From: a virus
Lineage: Duplodnaviria > Heunggongvirae > Uroviricota > Caudoviricetes
Length of the DNA stretch: 19,148 bases
Virus record (IMG/VR): IMGVR_UViG_2531839179_000028
Direction: 5' to 3' (one strand)
The position numbers and the translations under genes are program-made. Below are positions 1-15,786 of this stretch, piece after piece. The first letter of the stretch is position 1. Each line of letters begins with the position of its first letter. The notes under the pieces were generated by a model. That model was not told the origin of the DNA. It did no database searches and worked only from the letters and a program-made list of their open reading frames with translations.

Positions 1-90
1 TTGCCTCCCCCCCGTTGATGGGTAAAATAGCCGCAATTTTTCGTTTTCAACAAGCGCGGCGCGATGCCGCTTACTCAAGAAGAAAGAATT

Positions 91-165
91 ATGACGTTGT
101 CTCCTTATTTGCAAGAGGTGGCGAAGCGCCGCACTTTTGCTATTATTTCTCACCCCAATAATTAA
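91..165 (+). pseudogene. prfC: Truncated 5' fragment of the peptide chain release factor 3 gene (prfC'), host side of the prophage junction
   Basis: ATG at 91 translates to [22 protein letters not shown], which matches my recollection of the RF3 N-terminus up to the start of the GTPase P-loop. The frame then diverges to NN-stop at 163-165 and AT-rich phage-like DNA follows. The integrase gene starts 220 bp downstream. Confidence 0.55.
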
Positions 166-319
166 GCCCAATTTAAAGCTCTTTTATTCTTTCAAAATCC
201 TTTCAGTTAATTGAGGTTGAGTCATATAACTCATTTAAATACATTTGGTTATATGGCTTCTTTAATTGAAAATTCTTTCATGTAGCTTTAAATCGATCAG
301 GTTGCTTTCATCAAAAATC

Positions 320-376
320 TGTACATATGCTTGTACATAATGTACAAAGCAGCAGAGGTGTTTTGCGATTTGTACA
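320..376. repeat. Four copies of the palindromic hexamer TGTACA clustered just upstream of the integrase start
   Basis: TGTACA occurs at 320-325, 332-337, 341-346 and 371-376, within 66 bp of the int ATG at 386. GTACA-type half-sites also occur in the operator-like inverted repeats flanking cI. Confidence 0.5.
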
Positions 377-385
377 AGGTGAGTA

Positions 386-1609
386 ATGGCGCTGTCTGAT
401 GCGTGGTTGCGTTCAGTCGTTGGAAAGGAACGTGATAAGGTTTTGGTTAAATCCGATCGTGATGGTCTGTCTGTCAGAGTATCACCGAAAGGTCGCGTAG
501 TGTTCCAATATCGTTATCAATGGGCAGGGAAAGGTGAGCGTCTTGATATCGGAACTTACCCGGCAACTGGATTAAAAGAGGCCAGAGAAGAAGTTATTCG
601 TCTCCGTGGTGAACTTGAGTCAAACCGTAATCCACGATTTGTCAAGCAGGCTGAAAAACGAAAAGCTACTGAAGCCATGACGGTAGAGTCTGTGATCCGT
701 GCCTGGTATGAAGCATATTGTGTAAAAAATAAAAAAGGTTCTGAACAGATACTCCGCTCGTTTGAGCTGCACCTGTTCTCTAAAATCGGGAATATCCCTC
801 ACGATGCAGCTACATTGCATGATTGGTTAGAAGTCCTGGAGCCTCTTAGCACTAAGACTCCAGCAATAGCAGACCGATTGCTAATTAACGCAAAGCAGGC
901 CCATGTCTGGGCGTATAAGAGAAAGCTCATTGAAACTCGCCCGCTGTCGGATATCACGGGTAAAGATATGGATATCCGTAAAGGTCAGAAGAAACGGTTT
1001 CTGACACATGATGAAATTAAAATCCTTTATGCTGCGATCGATGGTTCTCGAATGGTTCCTAAATACCGGGCCTTCATTAAGCTATTGCTGCATTTTGGCT
1101 GCCGTAGTTCAGAGCTAATTACTGCCAGGGTGGACGATTTTGATTTCATTAATAAGGTATGGACTGTACCACCAGAACGACATAAGACTGGGGAGATAAC
1201 AGGCGAACCGCTAAAGAGGCCCATTATTGAACCGGTGGAGGAGCTTATAAAGAACGCTATCTCTATGAACAATGGTTCCGATATGCTTTTTACTAAGGAA
1301 GGAAGCAGGGAACCCGTTGGTCGAACATCATTGCAGTCGCTGCCTTACAATTTAATGCAGTACGCATGGCGGCGTTTGGGGTATCAATTCCCTCATTGGT
1401 CTCTTCATGATTTGAGGCGAACAGCACGAACAAACTTTTCTGATCTTACTGCTCCTCATATTGCAGAAATAATGCTCGGCCATAAACTGCCAGGGGTTTG
1501 GCAGGTTTATGACAAGAGCGATTATCTAGAAGAACAGCGTAAAGCCTACCAGGCGTGGTGGGAGAGGGTTGAATCGATCATTACTTGTGCTAGCTCAGAC
1601 CCCAACTGA
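386..1609 (+). CDS. int: Tyrosine-type site-specific recombinase (phage integrase)
   Basis: 407-aa ORF immediately downstream of the att junction. The C-terminal region carries the catalytic-domain hallmarks HDLRRT, HIAEIMLGH and the tyrosine in VYDKSDY. The basic N-terminus is typical of arm-binding domains in P4-like integrases. Confidence 0.9.
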   Translation: MALSDAWLRSVVGKERDKVLVKSDRDGLSVRVSPKGRVVFQYRYQWAGKGERLDIGTYPATGLKEAREEVIRLRGELESNRNPRFVKQAEKRKATEAMTVESVIRAWYEAYCVKNKKGSEQILRSFELHLFSKIGNIPHDAATLHDWLEVLEPLSTKTPAIADRLLINAKQAHVWAYKRKLIETRPLSDITGKDMDIRKGQKKRFLTHDEIKILYAAIDGSRMVPKYRAFIKLLLHFGCRSSELITARVDDFDFINKVWTVPPERHKTGEITGEPLKRPIIEPVEELIKNAISMNNGSDMLFTKEGSREPVGRTSLQSLPYNLMQYAWRRLGYQFPHWSLHDLRRTARTNFSDLTAPHIAEIMLGHKLPGVWQVYDKSDYLEEQRKAYQAWWERVESIITCASSDPN

Positions 1610-6457: not shown

Positions 6458-7132
6458 TTAGGCCTTTATTGTGTATCTTCTTGGTTTTCCCGAGAAAATC
6501 ACTGTACCAATTATAGAGCAATTACCGTTAATCTTAATGTAAGGCTCAGGCCAGTTTGGGTTTAATGCTTTGAGATAACGCTGTGTTCCATCTTCTATCA
6601 ACCGCTTGAAGGTGGTTTCGCCTGAATCGTGCATCAATGCAATAACGTCGTCACCGTGGCAGGCAGGGACTTCAGGATCTACAAAAATCATGTCTCCCGG
6701 GCGGTACTCATCAATCATTGAATCACCAATCACCCGCAAGATATAAGTCATTTCGCCACAGGGTACAGGGCAGGGATAAGTTTCTGCTGTGCTCAAATCA
6801 ACCTCAGAATAGCCAACTTCTTTCCATGCTCCGGCCTGTACCCATGATATGACAGGGACTAACGTTATTTGTTTGTTAGTAATTGAAACATCAGGTTTTT
6901 TTGTGATGTTTGTTGTCTGGTGTTCTTGATCAAGCCATCCGACAGGCAGGTCGAAACATTTTTCGATGTGCCGTGCCATGCTGTCACCGATATTTTTAGT
7001 AGCACCATCTCCCATAAACCTGCTGGTCTGGGTTGGCTCGCGATCAATCATGGTGGCAAAGGAAGAATTCCCGCCAACACCATCTCTCAGTTTTCTGGCG
7101 TTAGACCGCCGGATGTCATGGACTGTTTTCAT
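6458..7132 (-). CDS. cI: CI-like prophage repressor (N-terminal HTH, C-terminal S24 LexA-type autopeptidase)
   Basis: 224 aa. It has an Ala-Gly cleavage site (VQAGAW), the catalytic Ser in VIGDSM and Lys in TFKRL of S24 peptidases, and a basic N-terminal DNA-binding region. It is divergent from the cro-like gene across an operator-containing intergenic region. Confidence 0.85.
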   Translation of the reverse strand: MKTVHDIRRSNARKLRDGVGGNSSFATMIDREPTQTSRFMGDGATKNIGDSMARHIEKCFDLPVGWLDQEHQTTNITKKPDVSITNKQITLVPVISWVQAGAWKEVGYSEVDLSTAETYPCPVPCGEMTYILRVIGDSMIDEYRPGDMIFVDPEVPACHGDDVIALMHDSGETTFKRLIEDGTQRYLKALNPNWPEPYIKINGNCSIIGTVIFSGKPRRYTIKA

Positions 7133-7222: not shown

Positions 7223-7423
7223 ATGAAAGCGTATTGGGACTCTTTAACCAAAGAACAGCAGGGCGAGTTGGCCGGAAAAGTTGGCTCAACACCAGGCTAT
7301 TTACGGCTGGTTTTCAATGGTTATAAAAAAGCCAGTTTTGTGCTGGCTAAAAAACTTGAGCAATGCACGTCAGGTGCAATTACGAAATCTGACTTAAGAC
7401 CGGATATCTATCCGAAAGATTAA
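7223..7423 (+). CDS. Cro/YdaS-family HTH regulator
   Basis: 66 aa (MKAYWDSLTKEQQGELAGKVGSTPGYLRLV…ITKSDLRPDIYPKD). The HTH plus C-terminal DLRPD motif is typical of YdaS-like Cro proteins. GGAGG RBS sits 10 nt upstream. The long 167-aa ORF in the track is an antisense-to-cI extension. Confidence 0.7.
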   Translation: MKAYWDSLTKEQQGELAGKVGSTPGYLRLVFNGYKKASFVLAKKLEQCTSGAITKSDLRPDIYPKD

Positions 7424-7466
7424 CAGAACACCTTCAATTTTTAACCACAGAACGATGAGGCTAACC

Positions 7467-8019
7467 GTGGGTAAGCATCACTGGAAAGTAGAAAAACAGC
7501 CTGAGTGGTACGTGAAAGCTGTCAGAAAAACTATCGCGGCGTTGCCGGGGGGGGTACGCTGAAGCTGCTGAGTGGCTAGATGTAACAGAGAACGCTTTAT
7601 TCAACCGCCTTCGTGCAGATGGCGATCAGATTTTCCCGCTGGGATGGGCAATGATTTTACAGCGCGCGGCTGGCACTCACTACATTGCGGATGCTGTCGC
7701 ACAGTCTGCTGGTGGGGTGTTTGTATCGCTTCCTGAAATTGAGGAAGTAGAGAACGCCGATATAAACCAGCGCCTGCTGGAAGTCATCGAACAGATCGGG
7801 AGTTACTCAAAGCAGATTCGTTCGGCAATCGAAGATGGGGTAGTGGAGCCACACGAGCAGACAGCAATTAATGATGAGTTGTATCTGTCAATTTCGAAGC
7901 TCCAGGAGCATGCAGCACTGGTCTACAAAATCTTTTGCGCTCCAGAAAAGAGTGACGCCCGCGAGTGTGCAGCTCCGGGCGTCGTGGCGTTTTGTGTCTG
8001 TGGAGAAACTAACGCATGA
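7467..8019 (+). pseudogene. CII/YdaT-like early regulator interrupted by a frameshift at a G8 homopolymer
   Basis: GTG 7467 (GAGG 6 nt upstream; ATG 7455 in frame) opens a frame that stops at 7560-7562 just after G8 (7547-7554). A second frame is open from 7516 to 8019 with coding-like sequence (…AEAAEWLDVTENALFNRLRADGDQIFPLGW…) and no start codon before ATG 7651. Removing one G joins the two frames into one ~183-aa product. Confidence 0.5.
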
Positions 8020-8852
8020 ACAGTTTAACGGCAAATAACCGTTTGTCGCAACAGCTGGTGGTCAGCGTCGCTGAACACCTGTTGTTACGGCATGAATGCA
8101 GATTACCAAATCTCCTGGCTGTAAGTAACCACAGAGAACTTTACCTGACTGTGGGGGGCGAGTTGTGCAGGAACTTAACCGCTGGTTTCGTGACGGAAGA
8201 GGACTTTATGTTCATGTTATTCGTTGGGAGCCAGAAACACAGCGCGTTATCTATCTTCGCAAAGACTACCCGCATGAGTGCTTTAGTCCTTTGTGGAAAT
8301 TCAAGCGTGATTTTGTTGAGTGTGAAGGACCACCAGCACATTGATTCTGCCATTCCGGGACGTTACACTGTTCAGGCACCTTATAAAGCGGGTGCCGGGA
8401 TTGGCGTCCTGGAATTGATCAAGGCGATATATGACGCGCCAGCGTCTTTTTTATCGTCCGCATTTGCTCACATCAAAGTTATGGTGGGCTGGGCGGGGGC
8501 ATCGAAAGATGCGCCGGTTTCCTTGATCACCGGTTACGCCAACCCCGTTCAGTTCACCACCAGCGAAATTGGCGTTTCCGGTGGTGGAAGTATTTCACCG
8601 ATCAAGGAGGCTGCCATCATGGCTACTGTCCCAGCCCTCACTCGTCTGAATGATGAAGACTTACATAAACTCAGTTATGTAACAACTGCACTACGTGCTC
8701 TGCGCAAGGTAACTCTTTCGGATCCGCAGGCACATCAGGTTCTGGTAGAAACCCTTCTTAACTTGCAAGCTGAACGTATTCGTCTGGCGGATAAGGCTAA
8801 TTTTCATATTCACCGTCTCCTGAATATCAGCGGAGGGCATCGTCATGCTTAA
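8016..8852 (+). CDS. Hypothetical early-right operon protein
   Basis: 278-aa ORF. Its ATG overlaps the upstream stop (ATGA at 8016-8019), implying translational coupling. I recognise no domain. Confidence 0.45.
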   Translation: MNSLTANNRLSQQLVVSVAEHLLLRHECRLPNLLAVSNHRELYLTVGGELCRNLTAGFVTEEDFMFMLFVGSQKHSALSIFAKTTRMSALVLCGNSSVILLSVKDHQHIDSAIPGRYTVQAPYKAGAGIGVLELIKAIYDAPASFLSSAFAHIKVMVGWAGASKDAPVSLITGYANPVQFTTSEIGVSGGGSISPIKEAAIMATVPALTRLNDEDLHKLSYVTTALRALRKVTLSDPQAHQVLVETLLNLQAERIRLADKANFHIHRLLNISGGHRHA

Positions 8853-9081
8853 TCCGTTGCTCCTCAACATTTACCGTTTATTTCAGCGTAAAAAAATATC
8901 AACACCCACAGTTGGGCAGTGGTACACCACGCCAGCAGGGCATGTTCTACGTGTCAGCCTGGTTGACCGTGAATGTCAGAAGGTGATTTGTGAACCGCTG
9001 GGCCGTAATTACCGCGTCAGTATGCCGCTTATAGCCTTTCGCTCCGGAAAAAACATGAAGCATCTCGGAGGTGCAGCATGA
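8845..9081 (+). CDS. Small hypothetical protein
   Basis: 78-aa ORF whose start overlaps the upstream stop (8845-8852) and whose stop overlaps the start of the replication gene (ATGA at 9078-9081). Confidence 0.4.
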   Translation: MLNPLLLNIYRLFQRKKISTPTVGQWYTTPAGHVLRVSLVDRECQKVICEPLGRNYRVSMPLIAFRSGKNMKHLGGAA

Positions 9082-9830
9082 GTATGGAGCTGATGGTTAA
9101 AGCGATGAAAATTCGAGTGGGTAATCCATTGCGAAAACTGGTTCTGATCAAGCTGGCTGATAATGCCAGCGATCAGGGTGAGTGCTGGCCCAGCTACCAG
9201 CATATTGCTGACCAGTGCGAGATTAGCAAACGTTCTGTGATGAATCATATTGCGGCCCTTTGTGAGTCCGGGCTGGTAAAAAAAGTCACCCGGAAAGGTG
9301 AAAAAGGTAACTCAAGTAATATCTATCTCCTTCATCTGGATGGTGCAGGAGATTCACTAGGGGGTAGTGCAGGAGATTCACCCAGAACCAGTCACTCTTT
9401 TGAACCAGTCAAAGAACCAGTCAATGAACCAATAGCTGTTGGTGCATCTGCTGATGAGTCTGTGCGAGTTCGTTCAAACCGACCGGAATACTCTCCGGAG
9501 TTTGAGCAGGCATGGCTGGCATATCCCAAACGTACTGGTGGCAATTCAAAATCTGCAGCCTTCAAAGTCTGGAAAGCCCGTTTGAATGAGGGGGTAAACC
9601 CCGAAACCATGCTGGAAGGTGTGAAACGCTATGCGGGCTGGGTATCTGCGATGGGTAACAGCGGCACACAATTTGTGAAACAGGCTGTCACGTTCTTTGG
9701 TCCGGATCGTCATTTCGAAGAATCCTGGGAAGTTCCTGCGGTATCTGCAGCCAGACGTGAGGACCCGTACTTCAAAGCCAGTTACGACAACGTGGACTAC
9801 AGCCAGATCCCGGCAGGATTCAGGGGGTGA
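9078..9830 (+). CDS. Replication initiation protein (N-terminal winged-helix HTH, lambda O-like organiser)
   Basis: 250 aa. The N-terminus (LRKLVLIKLADNASDQGECWPSYQHIADQCEISKRSVMNHIAALCESGLVKK) resembles the HTH_36-type domain of phage replication initiators. The linker has an acidic EPV repeat encoded by DNA iterons, and a conserved C-terminal domain follows. Confidence 0.65.
   Translation: MSMELMVKAMKIRVGNPLRKLVLIKLADNASDQGECWPSYQHIADQCEISKRSVMNHIAALCESGLVKKVTRKGEKGNSSNIYLLHLDGAGDSLGGSAGDSPRTSHSFEPVKEPVNEPIAVGASADESVRVRSNRPEYSPEFEQAWLAYPKRTGGNSKSAAFKVWKARLNEGVNPETMLEGVKRYAGWVSAMGNSGTQFVKQAVTFFGPDRHFEESWEVPAVSAARREDPYFKASYDNVDYSQIPAGFRG
9343..9434 (+). repeat. Iteron-like direct repeats inside the replication initiator gene (candidate origin of replication)
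   Basis: GTGCAGGAGATTCAC occurs twice (9343-9357, 9367-9381), followed by GAACCAGTCA three times (9385-9394, 9402-9411, 9414-9423) and a degenerate copy GAACCAATA (9426-9434). Confidence 0.5.
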
Positions 9831-13522: not shown

Positions 13523-14275
13523 ATGAACCTTGAAGCCTTACCAAAATATTACTCCCCAAAATCTCCAAAATTGAGCGATGACGCACCGGCGACAGGCTCA
13601 GGTGGTTTAACGATTACGGATGTGATGGCTGCGCAGGGGATGGTGCAGTCGAAAGCACCGCTTGGGTTTGCCTTATTCCTGGCAAAAGTTGGTGTTCAGG
13701 ATCCTCAATTTGCGATTGAAGGTCTGCTCAATTACGCGATGGCACTGGATAACCCGACATTGAACAAATTGAGTGAAGAAACCCGGTTACAGATCATCCC
13801 TTACCTTGTGAATTTTGCCTTTGCTGATTATTCCAGGTCTGCGGCAAGTAAGGCTCGCTGTGAGCATTGTGCTGGTACTGGATTTCATAATGTATTGCGC
13901 GAAGTGGTGAAACACTCCAGAAGCGGGGAATCTGTTATCAAGGAAGAGTGGGTGAAGGAACTATGTCAGCATTGTCATGGTAAGGGAGAAGTCAGCACAG
14001 CGTGCAGAGGGTGTAAGGGTAAAGGTATTGTCCTGGATGAAAAAAGGACCCGGCTTCATGGCACGCCTGTTTATAAGATTTGTGGGCGTTGCAATGGAAA
14101 CCGGTTTAGCCGTTTACCAACCACACTGGCGCGGCATCATGTCCAGAAGCTGGTACCAGACCTGACGGATTATCAGTGGTACAAAGGATATGCAGATGTC
14201 ATTGATAAACTGGTTACAAAGTGCTGGCAGGAAGAAGCATATGCAGAGATACAATTGAGAAATGTGACAAGATAA
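13523..14275 (+). CDS. Late-gene antiterminator, Q-like
   Basis: 250 aa with clustered CxxC zinc-binding motifs (CEHCAGTG…CQHCHGKG…CRGCKGKG…CGRCNG). It is the last gene before a strong terminator and the lysis cassette, the canonical Q position. GGAG sits 7 nt upstream of ATG 13523. Confidence 0.6.
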   Translation: MNLEALPKYYSPKSPKLSDDAPATGSGGLTITDVMAAQGMVQSKAPLGFALFLAKVGVQDPQFAIEGLLNYAMALDNPTLNKLSEETRLQIIPYLVNFAFADYSRSAASKARCEHCAGTGFHNVLREVVKHSRSGESVIKEEWVKELCQHCHGKGEVSTACRGCKGKGIVLDEKRTRLHGTPVYKICGRCNGNRFSRLPTTLARHHVQKLVPDLTDYQWYKGYADVIDKLVTKCWQEEAYAEIQLRNVTR

Positions 14276-14406: not shown

Positions 14407-14551
14407 GTGCCAGATGTCTCATGAAACTATGAAATGGATTGGTGCGTTAAACATTTTTTCTTATTATCTTTTAGATTTTGGAGAGATGGTTAACGTCTGT
14501 ATTCCAGAAACTCGATGATTATTTAATAAATTAGTTTCAATGATGCTTCTA

Positions 14552-15703
14552 AATAGCTGCGCGGAATAGTAGATCACTTTGAGGGAACTTAGCCCGGATT
14601 GTGCGATCTGATCAATCGCCAAATCAAAACAAATCACCAACCGGACTGAGCAATGCCGATCATAGCACCAATTTCCCGTGACGAACGACGCCTGATGCAG
14701 AAAGCCATCCATAAAACACACGATAAAAATTATGCCCGCAGACTGACTGCCATGCTGATGCTGCACCGGGGCGACCGTGTCAGCGACGTTGCCAGAACGC
14801 TCTGCTGCGCCCGTTCCTCTGTTGGACGCTGGATTAACTGGTTCACGCAGTCGGGTGTTGAGGGACTGAAATCATTACCTGCCGGGCGTGCCCGTCGCTG
14901 GCCGTTTGAGCATATCTGCACACTGTTACGTGAGCTGGTAAAACATTCTCCCGGCGACTTTGGCTACCAGCGTTCACGCTGGAGTACAGAACTGCTGGCA
15001 ATAAAAATCAATGAGATAACCGGTTGCCAGTTAAATGCCGGAACCGTTCGCCGCTGGTTGCCGTCTGCGGGGATTGTGTGGCGAAGGGCTGCGCCAACTC
15101 TGCGTATCCGTGACCCGCATAAAGATGAAAAGATGGCAGCAATCCATAAAGCACTGGACGAATGCAGCGCAGAGCATCCGGTCTTTTATGAAGATGAAGT
15201 GGATATCCATCTTCATCCCAAAATCGGTGCGGACTGGCAACTGCGCGGACAGCAAAAACGGGTGGTCACGCCGGGACAGAATGAAAAATATTATCTGGCC
15301 GGAGCGCTGCACAGCGGGACAGGTAAAGTCAGCTATGTGGGCGGCAACAGCAAAAGTTCGGCGCTGTTCATCAGCCTGCTGAAGCGGCTTAAAGCGACAT
15401 ACCGTCGGGCGAAAACCATCACGCTGATCGTGGACAACTACATTATCCACAAAAGCCGGGAAACACAGAGCTGGCTGAAGGAGAACCCGAAGTTCAGGGT
15501 CATTTATCAGCCGGTTTACTCGCCATGGGTGAATCATGTTGAACGGCTATGGCAGGCACTTCACGACACAATAACGCGTAATCATCAGTGCCGCTCAATG
15601 TGGCAACTGTTGAAAAAGTTCGCCATTTTATGGAAACCGTCAGCCCATTCCCCGGAGGCAAACATGGACTGGCAAAAGTGTAGCGGTATTAAGCGCAGCT
15701 ATT
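14552..15703 (+). mobile_element. IS630-family insertion sequence (1152 bp) with TA target-site duplication at a CTAG target
   Basis: Terminal inverted repeats AATAGCTGCGC… (14552-) and …GCGCAGCTATT (-15703). Flanking TA at 14550-14551 and 15704-15705; removing the element regenerates CTAG, the target I recall for IS630. It carries a single transposase ORF. Confidence 0.8.
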
Positions 15704-15786
15704 TAGGTTATGACTGTAATGAAAAAGGTATTAATAGCAGCGATAGGTTTTTGTTTAGTTGGTTGTGCAGGTATGAAATTACCTGA
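14653..15786 (+). CDS. IS630-family transposase with an apparent 1-nt deletion near the 3' end, causing read-through beyond the IS
   Basis: The ORF matches the IS630 transposase as I recall it through residue ~322. At the A5 run (15613-15617) one extra A would restore a frame ending …LLKKVRHFMETVSPFPGGKHGLAKV-stop at 15681-15683, inside the IS, for 343 aa. As sequenced, the frame runs across the right inverted repeat to 15786. Confidence 0.8.
   Translation: MPIIAPISRDERRLMQKAIHKTHDKNYARRLTAMLMLHRGDRVSDVARTLCCARSSVGRWINWFTQSGVEGLKSLPAGRARRWPFEHICTLLRELVKHSPGDFGYQRSRWSTELLAIKINEITGCQLNAGTVRRWLPSAGIVWRRAAPTLRIRDPHKDEKMAAIHKALDECSAEHPVFYEDEVDIHLHPKIGADWQLRGQQKRVVTPGQNEKYYLAGALHSGTGKVSYVGGNSKSSALFISLLKRLKATYRRAKTITLIVDNYIIHKSRETQSWLKENPKFRVIYQPVYSPWVNHVERLWQALHDTITRNHQCRSMWQLLKKFAILWKPSAHSPEANMDWQKCSGIKRSYLGYDCNEKGINSSDRFLFSWLCRYEIT

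What the first reader, a model, noticed from the sequence alone, without database searches (positions are those of the whole stretch)
7455..8019. CII/YdaT-like early regulator split by a G8 homopolymer: possible frameshift pseudogene, slippage site or sequencing error
Coding-like sequence continues for ~45 codons upstream of the only ATG of the downstream frame, and a properly initiated frame (GTG 7467 with GAGG RBS) ends just after the G8 tract at 7547-7554. One fewer G fuses them into a single ~183-aa protein. If genuine, the lysogeny-establishment regulator is inactivated or made slippage-dependent. Loss of CII-like function would bias the phage toward lysis on infection, or may simply mark prophage decay.
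Basis: seen in the sequence. Interest (0 to 1): 0.55.

Follow-up and report, generated by a model that had tools for sequence, protein, structure and literature searches.

The report
Frameshifted ymfL (186-CII-like) prophage gene
One extra G in a run of seven Gs splits ymfL, a well-known prophage regulator gene related to the CII lysogeny activator of phage 186; this is an ordinary single-base frameshift or sequencing error at an indel-prone run, not a new mechanism.

Summary
G8 lies at 7547-7554. The GTG-7467 frame stops at TGA 7560-7562. Deleting one G gives a 183-aa protein identical to the RefSeq protein YmfL (WP_000515860.1).

The gene sits after a cro-like gene (ymfT) and opposite an S24 repressor gene (ymfK). 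It matches NCBIfam YmfL and Pfam Phage_CP76, and its model resembles the crystal structures of a phage 186 transcriptional regulator, presumably 186 CII. It does not match YdaT or lambda CII.

Homologues across Enterobacterales are full length, with a nearly invariant LPGGY motif at the tract. The helix-turn-helix lies between the tract and the downstream ATG, so the recorded sequence encodes a null allele.

The in-frame states are G7, G6T (commoner), G6C, or AGTGGT in K-12 e14, so the run itself is not conserved. About 1-4% of copies in three public collections carry a one-base indel here, on at least four backgrounds.

A prophage differing from the window by one SNP has G7 and an intact gene. 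Another, six SNPs away, shares G8. The other 27 genes compared in the window are intact.

Real slippage mutation and homopolymer sequencing error cannot be separated without reads. Programmed recoding or phase variation is unlikely. Low interest.

The parts
6458..7132 (-). ymfK: CI-like, LexA/S24-family repressor gene (context)
   Evidence: Pfam Peptidase_S24, 92 bits. 100% identical to the annotated ymfK of relatives.
7223..7423 (+). ymfT: cro-like helix-turn-helix gene immediately upstream (context)
   Evidence: 100% identical to the annotated YdaS-family HTH protein WP_000649477.1. Annotated as cro in phage SfV.
7457..7460 (+). GAGG ribosome-binding site, 6 nt before the GTG start
   Evidence: Read directly from the sequence. 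RefSeq annotation of relatives starts ymfL at the equivalent GTG.
7467..7562 (+). 5' fragment of ymfL: 31 codons, then TGA
   Evidence: Residues 1-29 are identical to YmfL.
7547..7554 (+). G8 run; G7 in the closest intact relatives. This is the site of the +1 indel.
   Evidence: Alignment with ETEC-2265. L200 differs from the window by this G and one SNP over 6.7 kb.
7555..7611 (+). Coding sequence for the predicted helix-turn-helix (about YmfL residues 30-48). No initiated ORF covers it in the G8 state.
   Evidence: The AF2 model has helices at 29-37 and 41-48. The alignment shows the conserved YAEAAEWLDVTENALFNRLR. The 186 cII- mutation V36E/Q37S lies in its HTH (PMC7708051). Mapping the motif onto this exact stretch is my inference.
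7555..8019 (+). 3' remainder of ymfL (residues 30-183 plus stop), in the +1 frame relative to the start
7651..8019 (+). Mechanical 122-aa ORF. Its ATG is the conserved internal Met62 of YmfL, not a start codon.
   Evidence: The alignment shows GWAM conserved in full-length homologues. This exact 122-aa product is called on 36 public contigs.

Best explanation
The locus is ymfL, the gene after cro in the rightward early operon of an e14/SfV-type lambdoid prophage. It encodes a regulator homologous to the CII lysogeny-establishment activator of phage 186. In this sequence a G7 run (codons Pro27-Gly28-Gly29, CCG GGG GGG) has gained one G. Translation from GTG 7467 then stops after 31 residues. 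The helix-turn-helix, which is encoded just downstream of the run and upstream of the only in-frame ATG, is never translated, so the recorded allele is null. The most likely origin is ordinary, unprogrammed replication slippage at an indel-prone run, in a gene that a resident prophage does not need to stay lysogenic. The expected consequence is inferred from 186 CII: the prophage is maintained normally, but phage released from it would establish lysogeny poorly. The identity of the gene, the G7 intact state, the loss of the HTH and the recurrence of indels are shown here. That the mutation is physically real in the strain, and the phenotype, are inferred.
For: Gene identity:
- NCBIfam NF041471 YmfL scores 169 bits against a cut-off of 90.
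- Pfam PF06892 Phage_CP76 scores 55 bits against a cut-off of 26.
- phrog_101, 'CII-like transcriptional activator'.
- Foldseek ranks 1-8 are all crystal structures of a 'transcriptional regulator from bacteriophage 186', 6VLI/6VPE/6VMH, with probability 1.0.
- Gene order is ymfK(-), ymfT, ymfL, as in K-12 e14 and phage SfV.

Intact state:
- The best complete-genome hits are 99.9% identical with one gap, and ymfL is annotated there at 183 aa.
- All 10 relatives that carry the window's exact Ash allele have a 183-aa YmfL.
- Twenty homologues from about a dozen genera of Enterobacterales are full length, with LPGGY nearly invariant.

Recurrence:
- One-base insertions at the tract (GGGGGGGG or GGGGGGGT) sit on at least 4 haplotype backgrounds. 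Three of them have an in-frame twin with no other difference in the gene; the nearest in-frame copy of the fourth (L135) is 2 differences away.
- IMG/VR holds 90 G7, 3 G8 and 1 G7T.
- The 68 metagenome contigs hold 65 in-frame copies, 2 with +1 and 1 with -1. One +1 contig has 28.6x coverage in its name.
- Complete E. coli genomes with identical flanks hold 94 G7, 1 G8 and 1 G6.
- PGAP flags the G8 copy in strain ZH177 as 'frameshifted'.

Heritability:
- L134 shares G8 but differs from the window by 6 SNPs over 7.4 kb.
Against: - A long homopolymer is the classic site of sequencing and assembly error.
- L200, the nearest relative (1 SNP in 6.7 kb), has G7 and an intact gene.
- The other 27 genes compared in the window are intact, so there is no general decay.
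- The probable source, GCA_000211935.2 contig AFFZ01000109.1, is 100% identical over 6.7 kb. It is a draft assembly whose sequencing platform I could not establish.
- L198, another copy of the same prophage, shows G6 among 18 single-base homopolymer deletions. Errors do land on this tract.
- No function has been tested for YmfL. The only experiment I found is that its overexpression does not cause filamentation (bioRxiv 10.1101/2020.11.19.390815).
Confidence: 0.55

Rival explanations
1. Sequencing or assembly artefact. The strain really has G7 and an intact ymfL, and the extra G is a homopolymer miscall in a draft assembly.
For: - This is the longest homopolymer in the window.
- It is the only indel against L200 over 6.7 kb, and L200 has G7.
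- All 27 other genes compared are intact.
- L198, an error-laden assembly of the same prophage, miscalls this tract along with 17 other short runs.
- Both frameshifted copies among the complete genomes are CM-prefixed chromosome records.
Against: - G8 is shared with L134, which is not identical to the window (6 SNPs).
- The window shows no other run-length difference from L134 or L200, so the assembly is not generally indel-prone.
- One-base insertions at this tract also appear in short-read-style metagenome assemblies, one at about 29x coverage, so real variants of this kind probably exist.
Confidence: 0.38
2. The run has a function. Either it is a reversible on/off switch (phase variation by slipped-strand mispairing) for the lysogeny regulator, or it is a programmed +1 ribosomal frameshift or transcriptional slippage site that still yields some full-length YmfL from the G8 allele.
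For: - Indels recur at exactly this tract on several backgrounds and in both directions.
- G8 and G7 occur in near-identical prophages.
- In principle, a P-site tRNA-Gly on GGG can re-pair one base downstream on GGG-G. This is inference only.
Against: - The run is not conserved. Synonymous G6T is commoner than G7: 88 against 31 of the first 120 IMG/VR matches, and 40 against 24 in metagenomes. G6C also occurs, K-12 e14 has CCGAGTGGTTAC, and the temperate phage SfV has G6T.
- Out-of-frame copies make up only about 1-4%.
- No G9 was found.
- The codon after the shift site is an ordinary GUA, with no stop or rare codon in the A site.
- Transcriptome-wide data for E. coli found all homopolymer insertions in A or T runs, and fewer than 1% of deletions began in homopolymer runs. 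The authors conclude that G and C runs are not slippage-prone (PMC5574713). Rescue of G8 would need a 1-nt deletion in the RNA.
Confidence: 0.05
3. The true gene is the 122-aa ORF starting at ATG 7651, and the upstream open frame is fortuitous.
For: Gene callers report this exact 122-aa product on 36 contigs. A PHROG family (phrog_7487, 122 positions) matches it end to end.
Against: - The family profiles align from residue 16-17 onward, across the tract.
- Full-length homologues conserve residues 6-61, including the HTH.
- All 10 contigs examined that carry the 122-aa product are disrupted copies: 4 G8, 2 G7T, 1 IS insertion, 1 rearrangement junction and 2 with frameshifts elsewhere.
Confidence: 0.01

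Closest known systems
YmfL of E. coli K-12 cryptic prophage e14 (b1147), and orf36 of Shigella phage SfV; NCBIfam NF041471 'YmfL family putative regulatory protein'
   Same: Same gene in the same place: after the cro-like ymfT and opposite the S24 repressor gene ymfK. The repaired product is identical to RefSeq WP_000515860.1. The NF041471 score is 169 bits.
   Different: The window copy has one extra G and is out of frame. K-12 has no G run at this position (CCGAGTGGTTAC) and SfV has G6T.
CII of coliphage 186 (Pfam PF06892 Phage_CP76; PDB 6VLI, 6VPE, 6VMH)
   Same: Pfam hit above the gathering score. The best structural matches have probability 1.0, with TM 0.41-0.52 for the whole chain and 0.63-0.69 for the N-terminal domain. 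The layout is an N-terminal HTH followed by a long helical hairpin. The gene lies in an early lytic operon, next to the switch.
   Different: Sequence identity is only 12-19%. The host phage is lambdoid, not P2/186-like. Activation of an establishment promoter by YmfL has not been shown.
ymfL pseudogene annotated 'frameshifted' in E. coli ZH177 (NZ_CM125652.1)
   Same: Identical G8 at the same tract. PGAP already treats it as a frameshifted pseudogene.
   Different: One SNP downstream (CTGGATG against CTAGATG), on a different haplotype background.
Homopolymer contingency loci (poly-G phase variation, as in Neisseria and Haemophilus; from general knowledge)
   Same: One-base gain and loss in a G run inside a coding sequence switches the reading frame.
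   Different: The tract is short, is not conserved, and is interrupted synonymously in most copies. Off-variants are rare.

Membership tests
YmfL family (NCBIfam NF041471) | Profile score above the curated cut-off (90 bits) | tested here: met
   169.1 bits, residues 16-156 on profile positions 2-143 of 143, for the sequence with one G removed.
YmfL family (NCBIfam NF041471) | One uninterrupted ORF of about 183-185 aa, including the conserved N-terminus (LPGGY plus HTH) | tested here: not met
   As recorded, the frame breaks after residue 29. The locus is therefore a frameshifted copy (pseudogene or sequencing error) of a family member, not an intact member.
YmfL family (NCBIfam NF041471) | Position after the cro-like gene, opposite the CI-like S24 repressor gene | tested here: met
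   ymfK 6458-7132(-), ymfT 7223-7423(+), ymfL 7467-8019(+). Same order in e14 and SfV.
Phage 186 CII family (Pfam PF06892 Phage_CP76) | Pfam score above the gathering score (26 bits) | tested here: met
   55.4 bits, residues 17-150 on profile positions 5-141 of 146.
Phage 186 CII family (Pfam PF06892 Phage_CP76) | Fold like the crystal structures of the phage 186 transcriptional regulator | tested here: met
   AF2 model of P0003, a 96%-identical intact homologue (mean pLDDT 74). Foldseek ranks 1-8 are all 6VLI/6VPE/6VMH chains, E down to 7.7e-4, probability 1.0, TM 0.41-0.69. The match is of moderate quality.
Phage 186 CII family (Pfam PF06892 Phage_CP76) | Activates the promoter that establishes repressor synthesis; unstable (degraded by FtsH and RseP) | not testable with these tools
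   Known for 186 CII (PMC7708051). No experiment on YmfL was found apart from the absence of filamentation on overexpression.
YdaT (Pfam PF06254) and lambda CII (Pfam PF05269); accessions from memory | Match to the family profile | tested here: not met
   The Pfam scan at E <= 0.01 returned only PF06892. None of the 50 PDB fold matches listed is described as YdaT or lambda CII.
Programmed frameshift or transcriptional slippage site | The out-of-frame arrangement is conserved among homologues | tested here: not met
   In-frame against one-base-longer tracts: 90 G7 against 3 G8 in IMG/VR (plus 1 G7T, on the commoner G6T allele) and 65 of 68 in-frame copies in metagenomes; 94 G7 against 1 G8 and 1 G6 in complete genomes; all 20 aligned homologues are single ORFs.
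Programmed frameshift or transcriptional slippage site | Slippage-prone run (A or T, 9 nt or more) or a +1 site with a stop or hungry codon in the A site | tested here: not met
   The run is G8 and is followed by GUA. G and C runs are reported as not slippage-prone in E. coli (PMC5574713).
Phase-variable contingency locus | The repeat tract is maintained by selection across copies | tested here: not met
   G6T is commoner than G7. G6C and AGTGGT alleles also exist.
Phase-variable contingency locus | On and off tract lengths coexist within one clonal population | not testable with these tools
   This needs raw reads or amplicon sequencing. Between near-identical prophages, G6, G7 and G8 are all seen, but one of those assemblies is error-laden.

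The most novel reading that the evidence does not exclude
The G run in ymfL acts as a reversible mutational switch. Lysogens throw off subpopulations whose prophage has lost (G8 or G6) or regained (G7) the 186-CII-like establishment factor, so the phage released by a clone is a mixture of temperate and effectively virulent particles.
Probability: 0.04. Interest if true: 0.6.

Novelty: already known. Interest (0 to 1): 0.12.

Why it matters
It matters mainly for annotation. The two short ORFs should be merged and labelled as frameshifted ymfL, either a pseudogene or a sequencing error. They should not be called as two hypothetical proteins.

Split halves of this gene already seem to have seeded their own PHROG families, phrog_7487 and phrog_8690. 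This shows how a recurrent homopolymer indel can pollute protein-family databases.

If the mutation is real, the prophage has lost its presumed lysogeny-establishment activator while staying otherwise intact in this 19-kb stretch. That predicts a clear-plaque-like phage on induction. An IS630-family insertion downstream of the Q gene may independently cripple late gene expression.

None of this would surprise a specialist.

Tried and rejected
- **Scans for -1 tract variants in IMG/VR.** Counts of -1 variants therefore come only from complete genomes and metagenomes.
- **PDB search by sequence.** The repaired protein gave no hit even at E <= 10. The relation to the phage 186 regulator appeared only through Pfam and fold comparison.
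- **Direct structure prediction of the repaired protein.** I modelled P0003, a 96%-identical homologue, with a 20-sequence alignment instead.
- **Literature search for the probable source accession** (AFFZ..., GCA_000211935). Nothing was found, so the strain and sequencing platform remain unknown.
- **GTDB species representatives.** Only one match, Shigella flexneri SFBU0723, with G7. Too few to be useful.
- **tRNA scan of the window.** None found.
- **YmfL as the SfiC division inhibitor of e14.** Considered and rejected: ymfM causes filamentation and ymfL does not.
- **G7T variants (GGGGGGGTTAC).** They could arise by +G in the G6T allele or by +T in the G7 allele. I did not resolve which.

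Full report

Yes. The run GGGGGGGG occupies 7547-7554 and is the only homopolymer of 8 or more bases in the window. GAGG at 7457-7460 precedes GTG 7467. That frame reads 31 codons (...AALPGGVR) and ends at TGA 7560-7562. The mechanical ORF list shows the 35-aa version that starts at ATG 7455.

The next frame is open for 45 codons upstream of its first ATG (7651) and continues to the stop at 8017-8019. Removing one G fuses the two frames into 183 aa. tblastn of the annotated YmfL of a close relative hits the window as two 100%-identical pieces in different frames, meeting at the run.

**2. What the gene is**

The 801 bases around the finding match 2,729 records of complete E. coli genomes. The best hits are 99.9% identical with a single gap, and there the region is annotated as ymfT (YdaS-family HTH, cro-like) followed by ymfL, 'protein YmfL', 183 aa, WP_000515860.1.

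- The repaired protein scores 169 bits on NCBIfam NF041471 (YmfL family; cut-off 90).
- It scores 55 bits on Pfam PF06892, 'Phage regulatory protein CII (CP76)' (cut-off 26).
- It matches phrog_101, 'CII-like transcriptional activator'.
- No YdaT or lambda-CII family appeared in the Pfam scan.

An AlphaFold model of P0003, a 96%-identical intact homologue (mean pLDDT 74), has helices at 13-25, 29-37, 41-48, 58-68 and 72-80, then a long helical hairpin at 96-156. Its eight best PDB matches are all crystal structures of the 'transcriptional regulator from bacteriophage 186' (6VLI, 6VPE, 6VMH), with probability 1.0 and TM 0.41-0.69. I take these to be 186 CII.

The gene order is S24 repressor gene (ymfK, 6458-7132, minus strand), cro-like ymfT (7223-7423), then ymfL. 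This is the order in K-12 e14 and in the temperate Shigella phage SfV. So the gene is a 186-CII-type regulator in the cII position of a lambdoid prophage.

Its function is inferred. The only experiment I found shows that ymfL overexpression does not cause filamentation, whereas ymfM does.

**3. Does the protein really start upstream?**

Yes. Both family profiles align from residue 16-17 onward, across the tract. Twenty homologues are single ORFs of about 180-187 aa. They come from Escherichia, Citrobacter, Klebsiella, Salmonella, Mangrovibacter, Phytobacter, Pantoea, Izhakiella, Rosenbergiella, Edwardsiella, Cronobacter and Scandinavium. Residues 6-61 are strongly conserved: G29 and Y30 are invariant, and L26, P27 and G28 nearly so.

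The Met encoded at 7651 is the conserved internal M62 (GWAM). The conserved stretch YAEAAEWLDVTENALFNRLR (residues 30-49) corresponds to the two short helices of the model. It lies in the same region as the HTH of 186 CII, whose cII- allele is V36E/Q37S.

This stretch is encoded at about 7555-7611, after the frame break and before the only ATG. No initiated ORF therefore covers the DNA-binding motif, and the allele as recorded is null.

**4. What is the intact state of the tract?**

- The closest relatives have G7.
- Among the first 120 IMG/VR matches to a length-tolerant pattern, 88 had GGGGGGT, 31 had GGGGGGG and 1 had GGGGGGC.
- In 68 metagenome contigs the counts were 40 G6T, 24 G7 and 1 G6C.
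- Phage SfV has G6T.
- K-12 e14 has CCGAGTGGTTAC.

The Pro-Gly-Gly peptide is conserved, but the run of Gs is not. It is one of several synonymous spellings, and not the commonest.

**5. How often is the tract out of frame?**

| Collection | In frame | One base longer | One base shorter |
|---|---|---|---|
| Metagenome contigs (68) | 65 | 2 G7T (one contig at 28.6x coverage by its name) | 1 G6 |
| Complete E. coli genomes, identical 40+23-nt flanks | 94 G7 | 1 G8 (ZH177, annotated 'frameshifted') | 1 G6 |

The exact 122-aa product is seen on 36. Of ten contigs examined that carry the 122-aa product:

- four had G8;
- two had G7T;
- one had an IS insertion;
- one had a rearrangement junction;
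- two had frameshifts elsewhere in ymfL.

The one-base insertions sit on at least four distinct gene haplotypes. Three of them have an in-frame twin with no other difference; the nearest in-frame copy of the fourth (L135) is 2 differences away. So several independent events, or errors, have occurred. PHROG families phrog_7487 (122 positions, matching residues 62-183) and phrog_8690 (N-terminal) look like products of such split copies in phage records.

**6. This particular copy**

- L199 (GCA_000211935.2, contig AFFZ01000109.1) is 100% identical to the window over 6,753 bases, including G8. It is probably the source.
- L200 (GCA_026140305.1) differs by one SNP plus the tract. It has G7 and an intact 183-aa gene.
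- L198 (GCA_900618165.1) has no SNPs but 18 single-base deletions in short runs. It shows G6 at the tract and is clearly error-laden.
- L134 (an IMG/VR contig) shares G8 but differs by six transitions over 7.4 kb.
- All ten relatives carrying the window's exact Ash allele have an intact ymfL.
- All 27 other genes annotated in the closest complete-genome relative are full length in the window.

**7. Real mutation or artefact?**

This cannot be settled without reads.

For a real mutation:
- G8 is shared by two non-identical genomes.
- The assembly shows no other run-length discrepancy.
- Out-of-frame variants occur in short-read-style metagenome assemblies at decent coverage.
- A CII-type gene is dispensable for maintaining lysogeny, so null alleles can persist in lysogens.

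For an artefact:
- This is the longest run in the window.
- It is the only indel against the closest relative, which has G7.
- The gene neighbourhood is otherwise pristine.
- Another assembly of the same prophage demonstrably miscalls this tract.

I put a real mutation at about 0.55 and an artefact at about 0.38.

**8. Programmed recoding or phase variation?**

Unlikely, at about 0.05.

- The out-of-frame arrangement is rare.
- The run is not conserved, and the commonest allele interrupts it.
- No G9 was found.
- The codon after the potential GGG-G shift site is an ordinary GUA.
- Rescue at the RNA level would need a one-base deletion in a G run. A transcriptome-wide study in E. coli found homopolymer insertions only in A or T runs, and fewer than 1% of deletions began in homopolymer runs.
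- Low-level spontaneous +1 slippage of tRNA-Gly on GGG-G cannot be excluded. Nothing suggests it is selected.

**9. Consequences (inferred)**

By analogy with 186 CII, which primes CI synthesis and is critical for establishing lysogeny (PMC7708051), a G8 prophage would be maintained and induced normally. Its progeny would lysogenise poorly.

Premature termination may also exert polarity on the downstream early genes. The IS630-family element downstream of the Q gene (see the items noticed in passing) may matter more for the viability of this prophage.

**10. Verdict**

The gene is the well-known ymfL, and the feature is an ordinary one-base homopolymer indel of a kind that annotation pipelines already flag. 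Novelty: already known. Interest: low.

Noticed in passing
window 14549-15706: IS630-family insertion sequence. It has a DDE_3 transposase ORF at 14653-15786 and 20-nt terminal inverted repeats at 14549-14568 and 15687-15706. It is absent from the closest complete-genome relative. It sits about 275 nt downstream of the Q antiterminator gene (13523-14275) and upstream of the late and lysis genes, so it may interrupt late transcription.
   Followed up: partly
window 8376-8452 and 8477-8564 (+): Rfam hits above gathering score to isrK (64 bits) and C4 antisense RNA (82 bits). Both lie inside the region annotated as the Ash-family gene (8307-8852). This suggests a P1/P7-type c4 antisense immunity module, or a Gifsy-1 isrK-type module, next to ymfL.
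   Followed up: no
window 8016-8852: The mechanical 278-aa ORF probably merges separate genes. Relatives annotate a DUF4222 gene (equivalent to window 8165-8344, in a different frame) and an Ash-family gene (equivalent to window 8307-8852). Some gene callers do report the 278-aa form.
   Followed up: partly
window 9078-9830; also L003, L276: The O-like (HTH_36/DnaD_N) replication gene varies in length in 22-aa (66-nt) steps: 250 aa in the window, 272 aa in most relatives and 294 aa in L276. The alignment breaks around 9343-9371. This could be copy-number variation of an internal repeat, possibly origin iterons. TRF found only a 12-nt, 2.5-copy repeat at 9402-9431.
   Followed up: partly
PHROG families phrog_7487 and phrog_8690: phrog_7487 (122 positions) matches exactly residues 62-183 of YmfL, which is the mechanical downstream ORF. 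phrog_8690 matches residues 1-49. Both appear to be built from frameshift-split copies of this gene in phage records, not from real families.
   Followed up: no
L198 (GCA_900618165.1, UYIS01000009.1): This copy of the same prophage has 0 substitutions but 18 single-base deletions in short homopolymers over 6.7 kb. Several genes are split as a result (S24 repressor, Dam). It is an error-laden assembly and should not be used to infer pseudogenes.
   Followed up: yes
L005, L007, L008, L011: ymfL is also disrupted in other ways in other genomes: an IS3-family insertion (L005), a rearrangement junction (L008), a +C insertion at GCTGC(C)TGAG (L007) and a T4-to-T3 deletion (L011). The gene is lost repeatedly in resident prophages.
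   Followed up: partly
window 1-386; L003 1-1900: In the closest complete genome the match begins immediately after yjjG, and a tyrosine integrase gene follows (window 386-1606). The left end of the window is therefore at or near the prophage attachment junction.
   Followed up: no
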